Of a stretch of 64,000 nucleotides of DNA, positions 26,194 through 31,003 are shown piece after piece. How positions within the stretch are numbered: the first letter of the stretch is position 1; each line of letters starts with the position of its first letter. The stretch is from an uncultured Methanosarcinales archaeon (GTDB taxonomy: Archaea > Halobacteriota > Methanosarcinia > Methanotrichales > Methanotrichaceae). The stretch is from contig CAWJKV010000005.1 in NCBI GenBank assembly GCA_963843555.1, positions 96,001 through 160,000 on the forward strand, given 5' to 3'. A program made the position numbers and the translations under genes. The notes beneath the pieces are model-generated. The model was not told the DNA's origin. It ran no database searches and saw only the letters and a list, made by a program, of their open reading frames with translations.

Positions 26194-26489
26194 TTAGACT
26201 CCTCCTGGTCTTGATATCCCCATTTTCAATGGTCAGGATATGTTTACAAGTACCATTATATATAGGTTCTTGAAGTGCGCTCAAATTCATCAGAAGTGGG
26301 AGGGAATTCAATTCAGCCCCAGCAACTCCGTTCCGTTTGAAAATGAGATCCAGTAGGCAAGGATACGATCTCTCAATTGCATTCTGCTTGCATGGTCTCA
26401 GCCCGGCGAACGCAGGCTGCAAGATGGGCGGACAGCAATCCAGGGATGCCAGGCAAAGAGATATATCGGAAGAAGCAAATTATAAATCG

Positions 26490-27242
26490 ATGAAAAGACT
26501 GACTGCCTTTGTCTCAGGAACGGTCCAGAAGACCGGCTACCGTGCAAAGGTAGTAAATCTGGCGAATTTTCTGGGACTTATGGGATTTGTGCAGAACCTT
26601 CCCGACGGCAGAGTGAAGGTTGTGGCGGAAGGTGATGATTCTATCCTAGAGCGTTTCCTCAATGATTTAAGGATCAAAGATCCTCTGATCGATGTGCAGG
26701 ACATCGAAAGTAATTACACTTCTGCCAGGGGTGACTTCATAAGATTTGAAAAGATGGTCGCCAATGGTGAAACGGATCAACGCCTGGACAAAGCAGCAGA
26801 ACTGCTCGGTGATCTAATCGTTGTCAACAAGCAGATTGTGGCCCAATTAATAATAAATAATGAGGAGACCAAGGGCGTCCGGGAAGAGGTCAGAGGCTCT
26901 CGCGAAGACATCCGAGCGGTTCATGAAGAAGTTAAAGGTGTTCGAGAAGAGGTCAGAGGCTCTCGCGAAGACATCCGAGCGGTTCATGAAGAGGTTAAAG
27001 GTGTTCGAGAAGAGATCAAAGGCTCTCGCGAAGATACAAACAAAGTCCGTGAATCCATCCAGGATGCTAGCCAGGAGATCACTTCCTCCTGTGAGATAAT
27101 CGCAGAGAAGATAGATGATGCCAGAGAAGAGATTGCAGATAGTGTTAAAGAGCTTCATTCTGATTTAAAAGATGATCTAAAAGAGAGATTGGTCCGAATG
27201 GAGGCAGATGTCTCGCAGATAAAAGCCAGGATCGGCCTGTAA
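26490..27242 (+). CDS. Acylphosphatase domain fused to a repeat-containing coiled coil
   Basis: VSGTVQKTGYR and GFVQNLPDGRVKVVAEG; heptad-repeat tail. Confidence 0.85.
   Translation: MKRLTAFVSGTVQKTGYRAKVVNLANFLGLMGFVQNLPDGRVKVVAEGDDSILERFLNDLRIKDPLIDVQDIESNYTSARGDFIRFEKMVANGETDQRLDKAAELLGDLIVVNKQIVAQLIINNEETKGVREEVRGSREDIRAVHEEVKGVREEVRGSREDIRAVHEEVKGVREEIKGSREDTNKVRESIQDASQEITSSCEIIAEKIDDAREEIADSVKELHSDLKDDLKERLVRMEADVSQIKARIGL
26862..27034 (+). repeat. 63-bp tandem repeat, about 2.7 copies (EEVKGVREEVRGSREDIRAVH)
   Basis: Directly visible in DNA and protein. Confidence 0.85.
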
Positions 27243-27311: not shown

Positions 27312-27491
27312 TTATATAAAATATAAAACAATAATGAGAACGATGCGGGGAGAGTGAAGTCGAGGCCCTGTGCAGAATATTGCGCTCTCCAACACATCCG
27401 TCTTCGGACATGATTCCTGCAGAATCTCCAATCGTTTCAGCATCCGCCCCGCCGCCATGCACCTCTCCGCCCAGGAGACATCGACTGCCAT
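27312..27491 (-). CDS. Possible 59-aa small protein (MAVDVSWAERC...)
   Basis: Manual translation with a GGGGGT RBS-like motif; no recognisable family. Confidence 0.25.
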   Translation of the reverse strand: MAVDVSWAERCMAAGRMLKRLEILQESCPKTDVLESAIFCTGPRLHSPRIVLIIVLYFI

Positions 27492-27587
27492 CTACCCCCG
27501 GTCCAAAACGTCGATCTGAATCATAACTTCTACCAGAGCTCGACTTTCAACCGCAAACTACAAGTATCCATAACGACTAAATAGGTA

Positions 27588-28095
27588 GTTTGCCGCTTCA
27601 TGCAAAGGGCGGCGGGCGTGTCGTGGGCCTAACGTATGCCGATAATGCTCTGTTCGGCAAGGCTGATTCAATCGCTGTCCCTCCGAGGGGCAGTTTGCGG
27701 TCGCTTATAAGATCAGATCGCTTCCTTGTTCCAGGAGATGCATGCCGTCGTGGTACTGCATTCGGCTACGAGCCTGTGAGACTTGAACTTCGGCAGCCAA
27801 AAAAAAGTTGCGCACGGTAACAGGTGCAGCAATCTGCCGAAAGGATCTCGCGCTAATACACGACCGGGGCATGAAGCGGCACAAAGCCAAAGGCGAGAGG
27901 CGAGCATGAGGCCCAGTGAGTTCGGGTTCCCGTGAAACGGACGCTGTGTCAAATTCCAGCGCTGTGTCGCCTCCAAGCCCAGATTAAAGTCGAGCTTCGG
28001 GCAGGCCAGGTCATCACTTCTGTGATTGGCTCCTCCTAAAAGGGCGCTGTGGATTTCGGCGCTGGCCCGCCCGGGAATCGATTATGCAGTTTTTC
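27588..28095 (+). ncRNA. Candidate large structured non-coding RNA, unassigned
   Basis: 13-bp perfect closing stem and more than 10 nested helices; upstream BRE/TATA-like element, downstream T-tract; no convincing ORF. Confidence 0.55.
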
Positions 28096-28182
28096 TATTC
28101 TTCCCTCCCAGATGGTGGTTTTATACTCTTGATTCTTCCTAATCGAAAGCCTTAAATATCGGCAATCGACGTATAGTATATT

Positions 28183-28246
28183 GGCGAAAGTCAATGGCTA
28201 ATTTTCTCCCTCCTACACCCAGAAGACTTTTGCCTCCCTCCTTCTT
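28183..28246 (+). ncRNA. Candidate sRNA hairpin with anti-SD (CCCTCC) motifs
   Basis: CGAAAG-CCTTAAATAT promoter-like element ~30 nt upstream; GGCGAAAGTC/GACTTTTGCC stem; related copy at 32507-32538 on the minus strand. Confidence 0.5.
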
Positions 28247-28657
28247 ATGCATAAATGCTTTCAGGTGATGCACTATTACTCAGGAGACAAAAAATTATTA
28301 ATTTCTATCCCGTCTTGAAATCGGAATCCTTTACCTTCAGTCCTCCTCTTTCAGCCTGCAGGTCGCAGGGATCGCCTCGTGCCTTCATCACCTCTACTTT
28401 TCGTCCATCCAATTCAGTCTCGGCTGAGTCTTCTGATCTTTTTTCAGTCAATTCATTCACCTCAATCAGAAAGGAAATTCGCACCTGATGATGATTATTA
28501 AGGAATCCATATTGATAAAGTATTGCCTTAACAAGACAAATTTATTTAAGATTATCCAGAAAGCCAGCGAGACAGATTATGACCCGTGAGCACGTCTTTC
28601 ATTACAGAATCAGCGGCTTATGTGGACTGATAGAGATGTTGCCTGTCACCATAATGG

Positions 28658-31003
28658 CTAATTGTAAGATCCCAGGACAGTTCGCAACTCTTCAAGATTC
28701 ACCGGTTTGGTTATGTAATCGTTCATGCCTGATGCGATGCATTTCTCCCGATCGCCTTGCATAGCATAGGCAGTGATGGCGATGATCTTAGGCCATTCAG
28801 GCGACTTTTCACGGATCTTCCTGGCGGCATCCAGCCCGTCCATCTCAGGCATCTGGATGTCCATGAGAACTACATCATAGGGCTGACGTTCCAGGGCGGC
28901 CAAGACCTCCAGCCCATTGGCGGCGACATCTGCACGATAGTTCAGCTTATTGAGCATCTTCAAGATTACCTTCTGGTTGATAATATTGTCCTCCGCGACC
29001 AATATGCGCAGAGCACGATCATGATCTGTTTGCATCTTGGTGTCTATCAACGGGGCCGGTTCTCTGCTTGTCACAGGCTGGAAGGAAGATTCCTTCGCCA
29101 GTATCGTAAAATGGAATACTGAACCTTTGCCTGGCTCGGATTCAGCCCAAATTCTGCCGCCCATCAGCCCAACAAGCCTCTTGCTTATGGCGAGACCAAG
29201 GCCAGTGCCGCCGTATCTGCGCGTAGTTGAGGGTTCAACCTGGCTGAAAGATTGGAATAGGTGGCTCATCTTATCCGCAGGGATTCCAATTCCTGTGTCC
29301 CTAACTGCGAAGTGGATCTCATAGTTGTCTCCTTCGAGATTCTTGCTCGAAACCGAGATATTCACCTCGCCTGAATGCGTGAATTTAACCGCATTGCTGA
29401 GCAGATTGGCCAGGACTTGGCGTAATCTTGTTGGGTCGCATATGATCGTTTTTGGAGTGTTGTTATCTATGTCGTAGGCAATTGTCAAGCCTTTTTCAGA
29501 CGCATTCGAAGCTACCAGATCAATGGCGTCCTCTATGCTGCCTTTAATATCAAAGGACTGTATCTCCAATTCCATCTTGCCATTATCAATCTTTGAAAAG
29601 TCCAGAATATCGTTGATAATCGATAACAGGGCGTCACCACTGATTCGGATGGTCTCGACATAATCGAGCTGCTCACGAGTCAGATCGGTTCTGAGTAGAA
29701 GACCTGTCAGGCCTATGACCGCGTTCATGGGAGTTCGTATCTCGTGGCTCATGTTGGCCAGAAACTCGGATTTGGCAATCGTTGCGGCCTCTGCAGCTTC
29801 CTTGGACTTCCGTAGATCCTCCTCTATACGTTTGCGATCCTGGATCTCGTTTTGCAGCTCTATATTGGTCGCTTCGAGCTGTGCTGTGCGTTCAATGACC
29901 CGGTCTTCGAGATCCTCATTTAGCTTTCTGACCTCCCTTTCAGCTCGTTTGGATGCCTCGTATAGACTTTCGTTCTCTTTAAGAGCCACGATTTGGCGGA
30001 TGATGATCAAACCGATGATGCCTCCCACACCCCACGATAGATGAAGGGTGCTCACCGGAAGTGGGTGATCATAGCTCCAGAGGAGAAGGATGTAAGCTGC
30101 TCCTGCGCAAATATATGGCAGATAATGAGGTTTCATGAACTGAAAAATATCAATTTCAAGATAACGAGAAGAGGATGAGTCCGTAAGAGTGGATGTTGGA
30201 GAAGAGGACCCGGGTTTCAGGGAATTGGCCTGCAGTACACCTGCGAGTCCGACCAACGAATAGGCAATGATCCAACCCGTATCCAAAAGGCCTCCCGGAT
30301 CATAAGTACCCTGCAAAGATTGGCTCGTATAAGGGATATCCGTTCCAATAAACATAGCCGTTCCCATAACCAAAAGCATTAGTGGGCCCATCCGCCGGGA
30401 TTTGACCCTCCGGAACAGCAGCTCTATCAGAGCAAAGAACAGCATTAGATCCATAACCGTATAAGCTACAGAGAGAGTTTGAATAAGGATGTCTGAGCCT
30501 GCGTTGTATTCAATAGTCGGCGCGATCAACAAGGCCCAAAATAGCATGACTGAGGCAATCACCACTATTCCCTCATCCAGCATGACCTTTAGCCTCTCGC
30601 TGGAGGTCAAAGAAATGCTTGGCAAGAGAAGAATACCTATGATGAAAAGAGGATACTGCATCAGATACGGTACATCGGCCAGGGAGGGGAAGGGAGACTG
30701 ATGCAGTATAAGTTCGTAGAACGTCCAGATAATATCGCCAATAGCATGACTGATCATGGCCAAAGCCAAAACAGCCCAGGCCAATTGGACCTCTCTTCTG
30801 CAAATGGCAGACCTTTGGGCTGCAGAGAACAGAGCAAGAACAGCCAGCATATCGACCAAAATACATAGCAAATCATTCGCCGCGGTTCGAAGCTCGCCGC
30901 TCAAGAGGATGCTAAAGGCTATCGAGCTGAGGGTAAGGAAGGCTGCCAGTAACAGAGCCGTGCGGAAAGAGATAATCGGTATTGTGTATCGATCGGCGGT
31001 CAT
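28658..31003 (-). CDS. Membrane-bound hybrid histidine kinase/response regulator
   Basis: Multi-TM N-terminus, [16 protein letters not shown]-box, NAVKFT, GTGLGL, receiver domain (LMDIQMP). Confidence 0.95.

What the first reader, a model, noticed from the sequence alone, without database searches (positions are those of the whole stretch)
27588..28095. ~500-nt densely base-paired non-coding element: candidate novel large ncRNA
Seen: a perfect 13-bp stem TGCCGCTTCATGC (27591-27603)/GCATGAAGCGGCA (27869-27881) encloses GTCGTG/CACGAC and hairpins TGCCGA/TCGGCA, CTGTCCCT/AGGGGCAG, ATGCA/TGCAT, GGCT/AGCC and TTCGGCAG (27789)/CTGCCGAA (27834), the last with an A8 bulge and an inner GTTGC-GCAC/GTGC-GCAAT stem. 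A second domain GAGGCGA (27897)/TCGCCTC (27967) contains CCGT-GAA-ACGG and CGCTG/CAGCG, and more hairpins run to a T-tract near 28090. A BRE/TATA-like CGCAAA-CTACAAGTA lies ~30 nt upstream. I found no RNase P, SRP or group II intron signature and no credible ORF. The alternative is a MITE-like element, but no target-site duplication is visible.
Basis: partly seen in the sequence, partly recalled or inferred. Interest (0 to 1): 0.8.

Follow-up and report, generated by a model that had tools for sequence, protein, structure and literature searches.

The report
Large folded RNA of Methanothrix archaea
This is a gene for an elaborately folded RNA of about 500 letters, present in several copies in most methane-making Methanothrix-family archaea and often found beside genes of mobile DNA; it matches no catalogued RNA family and its job is still unknown.

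Summary
Window 27587-28088 (+) is one copy of a conserved, multi-copy, structured non-coding RNA gene family of Methanotrichaceae. A covariance model finds it in 84 of 105 family genomes, up to 12 matches each, and in 0 of 150 other genomes drawn from the phylum. No Rfam family matches. In the 3' half, 48 of 59 pairs show two-sided changes across 100 sequences. Anatomy: conserved archaeal promoter, variable 5' domain, two homologous four-way-junction modules, T-tract, and usually a second promoter with a 66-nt hairpin RNA bearing CCCUCC motifs. Contigs from four metatranscriptomes cover it. There is no conserved ORF, no terminal inverted repeat and no consistent flanking duplication, so it is not a MITE. 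A short tyrosine integrase clade has the RNA within 10 kb in 16 of 22 genome loci and 2 of 3 viral contigs. Best reading: a GOLLD/ROOL-like ornate RNA spread by integrative elements and kept by the host. The molecular function is inferred, not shown.

The parts
27552..27586 (+). Promoter 1: BRE-like 27552-27557, TATA-like 27559-27566, AT-rich spacer. Start site inferred at 27587-27591.
   Evidence: Near-invariant in copies. Mean column conservation 0.93 against 0.84 for the RNA body in 54 copies, and 0.83 against 0.70 in 38 others. Present in 24 of 28 independent metagenome loci. Function as a promoter is inferred from position and from recalled archaeal consensus.
27587..28088 (+). Large structured non-coding RNA, about 500 nt (420-540 nt in 92 non-redundant copies; shorter forms in other genera)
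   Evidence: lengths; shorter forms; RNA-library contigs from 27592 to about 28059.
27591..27881 (+). 5' domain: closing helix P1 (27591-27603/27869-27881), P2 (27620-25/27859-64), then a multi-way junction with a 2-bp hairpin, a long arm P4 (27648-27662/27724-27737) holding variable hairpins, P5 (27738-27761), and a long arm P7 (27776-81/27846-51) with the A-rich bulge and terminal hairpin 27807-27833
   Evidence: 26 of 77 pairs with two-sided change in 27 sequences, 0 of 500 shuffles as high; the inner helix 27697-27721 is weak in that alignment (44.6% paired). The same helices pair in a second sequence class. Natural deletions shorten P4 to a plain hairpin (L025; L276, L283-L287).
27898..27972 (+). 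Module A: four-way junction (closing helix plus three hairpins); third hairpin has a T-loop-like loop
   Evidence: top covarying columns match the model. The T-loop label rests on a recalled motif definition.
27989..28082 (+). Module B: homologous four-way junction on a long closing helix
   Evidence: A model built from module A alone finds module B at 28.5 bits, E 1.3e-7; next best hit in the window 8.8 bits. Pair counts.
28090..28102 (+). T-rich tract, likely terminator
   Evidence: Sequence; T-rich in homologs. Function inferred.
28144..28182 (+). Promoter 2 (BRE/TATA-like) of the companion small RNA
   Evidence: Conserved in 38 aligned copies; position.
28183..28248 (+). Companion small RNA candidate: 10-bp hairpin 28183-92/28225-34 with CCCUCC in the loop and in the 3' tail (anti-Shine-Dalgarno-like)
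   Evidence: Fold z -3.37. Follows the large RNA on the same strand in 61 of 95 loci (overlapping loci included) and 21 of 28 metagenome loci. Also stands alone in this genome (11 profile hits in all). Its transcription is not shown.
27384..27502 (.). Decayed remnant of the DNA that lies upstream of other copies (shared cassette sequence)
   Evidence: 77.5% over 120 nt with the upstream region of the copy at G000:C5:226 kb; no significant protein match left.

Best explanation
A stand-alone gene for a large, ornately folded non-coding RNA. SHOWN: conserved promoter-like region, conserved and covarying + strand structure, two homologous junction modules, several dispersed copies per genome, presence in RNA libraries. 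INFERRED: it is transcribed from promoter 1 to the T-tract. It entered and spread through Methanotrichaceae genomes as cargo of integrative elements (proviruses or integrated plasmids) with a ~190-aa tyrosine integrase, in a cassette wHTH - DUF6036 nucleotidyltransferase - small ORF - MC1 - small ORF - DUF1699 - large RNA - small RNA. Hosts keep the RNA gene while neighbouring protein genes decay. COMMITTED GUESS on mechanism (about 35-40%): it acts in trans as a folded RNA body, like GOLLD/ROOL, with the T-loop-like loops of the twin modules making RNA-RNA contacts, either to assemble into a multimer or to hold other RNAs such as tRNA. The variable 5' domain is an accessory docking part.
For: Structure. 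Range and copy number: 36 of 36 same-genus genomes and 0 of 24 from other families by blastn; 84 of 105 family genomes, 12 of 16 genera; 57 of 74 family and 0 of 76 other class genomes with the module model. Promoter better conserved than body. Contigs of 4 metatranscriptomes from 4 studies cover it; one contig runs 27592-28022. 16 RNA-labelled runs hold part of it. No fixed downstream gene. Integrase link: RNA within the fetched 10 kb in 16 of 22 genome loci and 2 of 3 viral contigs; the integrase lies downstream and convergent in 15 of the 16. One viral contig also has terminase, portal and head protease. Broken neighbours beside intact RNA: split nucleotidyltransferase, HTH, MC1 or DUF1699 matches. 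GOLLD is described as prophage-borne with a conserved 3' and less conserved 5' region (passages of 10.1101/2024.12.08.627333).
Against: No function was tested. All RNA data are contigs of relatives at 82% or more identity, unstranded, from runs picked because they hold the sequence, and none holds half of the words. Only 2 of 20 RNA-centred 20-kb loci carry this integrase clade, and no full-length copy in this genome has it within 10 kb. Loci are kin, so counts overstate independence. Covariation was counted on alignments partly fitted to the model without a phylogeny-aware test. No pseudoknot signal was seen in the 3' half, unlike ROOL. tRNA genes lay in only 4 of 49 loci scanned. 21 of 105 family genomes, including all 7 of one genus, gave no match, so it is not essential family-wide.
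Confidence: 0.6

Rival explanations
1. Defence or addiction RNA: a cloverleaf-like decoy or antitoxin that neutralises a tRNA- or RNA-targeting toxin of the same elements, which would explain why hosts keep it.
For: A DUF6036 nucleotidyltransferase with a wHTH gene, a PemK-like gene and Mrr recur near copies. The modules have four-way cloverleaf order with a T-loop-like last arm.
Against: The nucleotidyltransferase was near 6 of 49 and PemK near 4 of 49 copies, often broken. ARAGORN and Rfam do not call the modules tRNA, and the module model does not hit the window's four tRNAs. There is no repeat array as in type III antitoxins (feature recalled).
Confidence: 0.15
2. Ribozyme, or ligand-binding RNA acting in trans.
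For: Size, multi-way junctions and invariant unpaired stretches such as 27853-27861 in the window's class are what structured catalytic or sensing RNAs show (general knowledge).
Against: No Rfam ribozyme or riboswitch match. Those stretches differ in the second 5' class. It interrupts no gene and has no fixed downstream gene.
Confidence: 0.1
3. RNA partner (guide or scaffold) of the short tyrosine integrase, by analogy with IS110 bridge RNAs.
For: Strong linkage to one integrase clade. The 197-aa integrase is nearly all catalytic domain (Pfam Phage_integrase 12-174).
Against: Distance (0.1-8.5 kb) and orientation vary. Most copies lack it. No excess of 11-nt or longer matches between the RNA and flanking DNA in 5 of 6 loci; the sixth had 15 against a null maximum of 7 and stays unexplained. 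Integrase breakpoints are not fused to RNA ends. Short RNA-free tyrosine recombinases such as FimB exist (recalled).
Confidence: 0.07
4. MITE or other non-autonomous DNA repeat, folded by accident and transcribed passively.
For: Many dispersed copies with a sharp left boundary.
Against: No terminal inverted repeat of 8 nt or more in 92 of 92; flanking direct repeat of 6 nt or more in only 6 of 92. Folding is strand-specific, two-sided changes include G-U pairs, and the promoter is conserved.
Confidence: 0.04

Closest known systems
GOLLD RNA
   Same: Large ornate RNA of unknown function on prophages; conserved 3' region and less conserved 5' region (passages).
   Different: No Rfam match; archaeal; about 500 nt rather than often over 800; multi-copy on chromosomes; rarely near tRNAs; twin homologous modules.
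ROOL RNA
   Same: Large ornate RNA on prophages and phages, no known protein partner (passages).
   Different: No Rfam match; ROOL has multiple pseudoknots, none detected here in the 3' half; cage formation untested.
OLE and raiA motif RNAs
   Same: Large or highly structured RNAs of unknown biochemical function; raiA is abundant in cells (passages of PMC12968392; OLE from search listings only).
   Different: Bacterial; raiA is single-locus; no match to either model; no fixed partner gene found here.
tRNA and tRNA-like RNAs
   Same: Closing helix plus three hairpins, with a T-loop-like last loop (TGTTCGATTC in 3 copies; likeness to the tRNA T loop is recalled).
   Different: 3-bp middle stem with an 8-nt loop, variable first arm, linker before the closing strand; not called by ARAGORN or Rfam.
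Archaeal RNase P and SRP RNAs
   Same: A domain of about 300 nt closed by an end-to-end helix.
   Different: The genome has its own genes elsewhere; the 3'-half model does not hit them.

Membership tests
Any Rfam 15 family (includes GOLLD, ROOL, OLE, HEARO by recall) | Covariance-model match | tested here: not met
   None at gathering threshold in the window besides tRNAs; only 3 off-target chance hits at E up to 10; none on the RNA in 10 loci of other classes.
GOLLD/ROOL-like ornate RNA (works-like) | Large size with extensive covarying structure | tested here: met
GOLLD/ROOL-like ornate RNA (works-like) | Carried on virus or provirus DNA | tested here: met
   Two IMG/VR contigs, L206 and L207; L206's contig has terminase and portal. 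Most copies are chromosomal.
GOLLD/ROOL-like ornate RNA (works-like) | Often near tRNA islands | tested here: not met
   tRNA genes in 4 of 49 distinct loci scanned.
GOLLD/ROOL-like ornate RNA (works-like) | Pseudoknots | tested here: inconclusive
   No clear non-nested pairing signal in the 3' half, effective 69 sequences; 5' domain and cross-domain pairs not analysed this way.
GOLLD/ROOL-like ornate RNA (works-like) | Protein-free multimer or cage | not testable with these tools
   Needs cryo-EM or mass photometry.
MITE | Terminal inverted repeats | tested here: not met
   0 of 92 copies with 8 nt or more at the ends of the promoter-plus-RNA unit; a larger unit with other ends was not tested.
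MITE | Target-site duplication | tested here: not met
   6 of 92 with a flanking direct repeat of 6 nt or more; no empty site found for this locus.
RNase P RNA | Match to RF00373; role as the genome's P RNA | tested here: not met
   Single match lies on contig C14.
SRP RNA | Match to RF01857 | tested here: not met
   Match lies on contig C3.
tRNA / tmRNA | ARAGORN or Rfam call | tested here: not met
Group I / group II intron | Interrupts a host gene; catalytic-core match; intron-encoded protein | tested here: not met
   Intergenic with own promoter; no Rfam hit; no conserved ORF, best cluster 17 of 92 on the antisense strand.
omega-RNA (IscB/TnpB) or IS110 bridge RNA | Cognate nuclease or transposase gene adjacent | tested here: inconclusive
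   No such recurrent neighbour among ORF clusters of 49 and 28 loci; clusters were judged by eye and only 13 proteins went to Pfam; orphan copies acting in trans are not excluded.
omega-RNA (IscB/TnpB) or IS110 bridge RNA | Variable guide matching flanking or target DNA | tested here: inconclusive
   No excess exact matches in 5 of 6 loci; short split guides would be missed.
Riboswitch / cis-regulatory leader | Consistent downstream gene on the same strand | tested here: not met
   Followed by a T-tract and a separate promoter; downstream genes vary.
Type III toxin-antitoxin | RNA repeat array upstream of a toxin gene (recalled) | tested here: not met
   No array or fixed downstream ORF.
Type III toxin-antitoxin | Commonest neighbour (DUF1699) has a toxin fold | tested here: inconclusive
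   Model pLDDT 86; best Z 6.2, helix-turn-helix-like C-terminus; no Foldseek match at E 0.001.

The most novel reading that the evidence does not exclude
The RNA is a working part of the mobile element: a scaffold or guide for the compact ~190-aa tyrosine integrase with which it travels, which would be an RNA-assisted tyrosine recombinase. A milder and likelier novel reading (about 0.3) is an archaeal counterpart of the GOLLD/ROOL self-assembling RNAs, brought in by proviruses and kept in many copies by the host.
Probability: 0.07. Interest if true: 0.95.

Novelty: new variant of a known kind. Interest (0 to 1): 0.72.

Why it matters
Large ornate RNAs are rare, and the classes I found described (OLE, GOLLD, ROOL, raiA) are bacterial or phage-borne. 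This is a family-wide, multi-copy archaeal one in Methanothrix-type methanogens (major acetate-using methane producers, from general knowledge), present in wetland, soil and sediment RNA libraries and not in Rfam. It offers a compact target for cryo-EM, natural deletion variants that define a core, an internal duplication that shows how such RNAs grow, and a companion anti-Shine-Dalgarno-like small RNA. It may also be a marker of an uncharacterised integrative element family.

Tried and rejected
Rfam at two thresholds and on other classes: nothing. Plasmid and phage record collections: no match. Viral pattern scans: 1, 0, 1, 0, 0 hits, both the same contig. Two bacterial pattern hits and one out-of-family model hit are chance matches in what reads as coding DNA. 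Pairing between the small RNA and the large RNA: no better than shuffles, mean z +0.14 in 27 pairs, crude test. By-eye likenesses to a permuted group I core, group II domain V, a K-loop and a cobalamin core (all recalled) were dropped because other classes keep different pairings or lose the motif. The RNA as integrase attachment site: breakpoints are not fused to it. In one search the conserved promoter bin had no cover in 2 of 4 runs and the small RNA almost none; by the tool's terms this proves nothing, and depth was not used to rank genes. The skip joints in one run may be strain deletions or library artefacts. The metagenome scan gave only contigs of 1 kb or more, so no transcript ends. 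No covariance model of the 5' domain was obtained, so distant relatives sharing only that domain are untested. Structural alignment with Q-INS-i did not run. The sigma-70 promoter scan was uninformative. Literature: searches (listings and abstract starts only) showed no description of this RNA; two papers were read as passages only; no supplements were read, and motif tables in supplements or subscription journals could hold it. Earlier scan notes: nothing.

Full report
Observation. The stretch is intergenic, between an acylphosphatase-domain gene ending at 27242 and a convergent histidine kinase gene ending at 28658. The + strand folds better than all 100 shuffles (z -3.40); the - strand does not (z -0.75). 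Rfam and ARAGORN find nothing here.

It is a family. This genome holds 8 matches to a model of the 3' half, on six contigs; the two weakest, on C16, look partial. blastn finds it in 36 of 36 same-genus genomes and 0 of 24 from other families. The model finds it in 84 of 105 genomes of the family, 12 of 16 genera, up to 12 matches per genome, and in 0 of 150 others drawn from the phylum, 4 of which were family members of a genus that lacks it. A shorter model built from more divergent copies gives 57 of 74 family genomes and 0 of 76 other genomes of the class, and one weak hit among 150 phylum genomes that longer profiles do not support. A pattern scan of the named genome collection gave 64 stretches: 62 archaeal, titled Methanothrix, Methanosaeta, Methanotrichaceae, Methanosarcinales or uncultured archaeon, and 2 bacterial chance hits. 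So the host is a Methanotrichaceae archaeon; outside that family it was not found in the genomes searched.

Boundaries. Conservation starts about 8 nt upstream of the BRE-like element at 27552 and fades at the T-tract near 28090. The 35-nt promoter region is better conserved than the RNA body (0.93 against 0.84 in 54 copies, 0.83 against 0.70 in 38; about five copies of the first class were filed with the second by my regular expression). It is kept even in distant genera. Spacing puts the start at 27587-27591 (inference).

Structure. In the 5' domain 26 of 77 pairs show a two-sided change in 27 sequences, with 0 of 500 shuffles as high; one inner helix is poorly supported in that alignment. 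In the 3' half the figures are 23 of 59 pairs on a plain sequence alignment of 33 copies and 48 of 59 on 100 copies aligned to the model, which leans towards it. The strongest covarying column pairs are mostly model pairs. These controls do not correct for relatedness. The 5' domain comes in at least two sequence classes and in shorter forms; shared helices pair in both classes, and natural deletions reduce the P4 arm to a plain hairpin. The 3' half is a tandem duplication: a model of module A alone detects module B at E 1.3e-7 and none of the window's tRNAs. Each module is a four-way junction; the loops of the second and third hairpins resemble T-loops (loop counts; the motif definition is recalled).

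Coding or MITE? The best conserved ORF cluster covers 17 of 92 non-redundant copies and is antisense. No copy has a terminal inverted repeat of 8 nt or more, and 6 of 92 have a flanking direct repeat of 6 nt or more. The genome has its own RNase P and SRP genes.

RNA libraries. 20 of 23 listed runs hold part of the stretch, 16 on record as RNA, from 9 studies; none holds half of the sampled words. Contigs of 4 runs from 4 studies lie across the element; listed pieces run from 27592 to about 28059, one of them 27592-28022. These are unstranded contigs of relatives from runs chosen for holding the sequence. They fit transcription but show neither strand, ends nor level.

Companion gene. A second promoter at 28144 precedes a 66-nt hairpin with CCCUCC in loop and tail. 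It follows the large RNA in 61 of 95 loci (some fetched twice) and 21 of 28 independent metagenome loci. It shows no special pairing to the large RNA. I read it as a candidate repressor of ribosome-binding sites (inference).

How it spreads. Neighbours vary, but one set recurs: DUF1699 (11 of 49 loci), two small ORFs, MC1, wHTH with a DUF6036 nucleotidyltransferase, and a PemK-like gene, complete in L177. One IMG/VR contig has the RNA 90 nt behind a 197-aa tyrosine integrase, with terminase, portal, head protease and an anti-restriction gene on the other side. A second viral contig has it beside the same integrase and a ParA-like gene (judged by eye). The integrase search gave 37 matches in 29 of 105 genomes. 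Of the 25 at 64% identity or more I examined 22 at up to 10 kb each side, leaving out 3 on short contigs or contig ends: 16 had the RNA, with an integrase downstream and convergent in 15. A few copies per 2.5 Mb would give about 4% by chance (rough estimate; loci are kin). Many of these integrases are truncated near codon 67, in what look like a few inherited events, and are not fused to the RNA. The reverse count is low: 2 of 20 RNA-centred loci carry this clade, and no full-length copy in this genome does. This fits cargo of an integrative element whose protein genes decay while the RNA gene stays. DUF1699 models as an alpha/beta domain plus a helix-turn-helix-like part with no clear structural match, so it gives no clue to the RNA's job.

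Mechanism. I commit to a trans-acting folded RNA of the GOLLD/ROOL kind, whose twin modules make RNA-RNA contacts (35-40% for that step; about 85% that it is a functional structured RNA at all). Rivals are a toxin decoy, a ribozyme or sensor, an integrase partner (no guide-like matches in 5 of 6 loci) and a MITE.

Comparison and novelty. GOLLD and ROOL are described as prophage-borne RNAs of unknown function that form cages, GOLLD with a conserved 3' and variable 5' region (passages of 10.1101/2024.12.08.627333); raiA as abundant, single-locus and unexplained (passages of PMC12968392). This RNA is a member of none. Nine literature searches, seen as listings only, showed no description of it; supplements and subscription journals were not seen. 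Verdict: a new archaeal large structured RNA family, a new variant of a known kind. Interest 0.72.

Noticed in passing
G000: C5:340776-340880, C12:52835-52935, C16:78693-78794, C14:45534-45630, C4:104588-104691, C10:121141-121238: Further copies of the promoter plus CCCUCC hairpin small RNA gene, most without an intact large RNA beside them: a multi-copy small RNA family not in Rfam.
   Followed up: partly
L240:10330-10420 and L206:7280-7345: A second, convergent hairpin of the same small RNA type about 130 nt past the first; a loose pattern finds it in 11 of 38 loci. Absent in the window.
   Followed up: partly
L194, L208, L244-L247, L249, L251-L253, L258: Integrase fragments begin at nearly the same place, codon 67-69. 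It could be an attachment site inside the gene or a few inherited deletions.
   Followed up: partly
L197-L198 (IMG/VR contig G261): Probable Methanothrix provirus edge: terminase, portal, head protease, anti-restriction gene, integrase, RNA, MC1, DUF1699.
   Followed up: partly
L207:4836-4948: A decayed second integrase fragment lies right after the RNA's 3' end, besides the intact integrase upstream.
   Followed up: no
window 26337-27242: Acylphosphatase-domain protein with a repeated coiled-coil tail; the DNA has tandem repeats near 26870-27040.
   Followed up: no
L010, L015, L017, L044, L045, L048 upstream of the promoter: A shared inverted-repeat insert of about 150 nt between DUF1699 or MoaA and the RNA promoter; may be a true MITE.
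   Followed up: no
G000: C2:181814-181902 and C18:102986-103182: Isolated fragments of the 5' domain without the 3' modules.
   Followed up: no
L244: 15 exact matches of 11 nt or more between the RNA and the rest of the locus against a null maximum of 7; a follow-up blastn printed no alignment. Unexplained.
   Followed up: partly
L275, L277, L278, L288-L290; G000:C8:9030-9510: A third, shorter 5'-domain class with the same promoter and 3' modules.
   Followed up: partly
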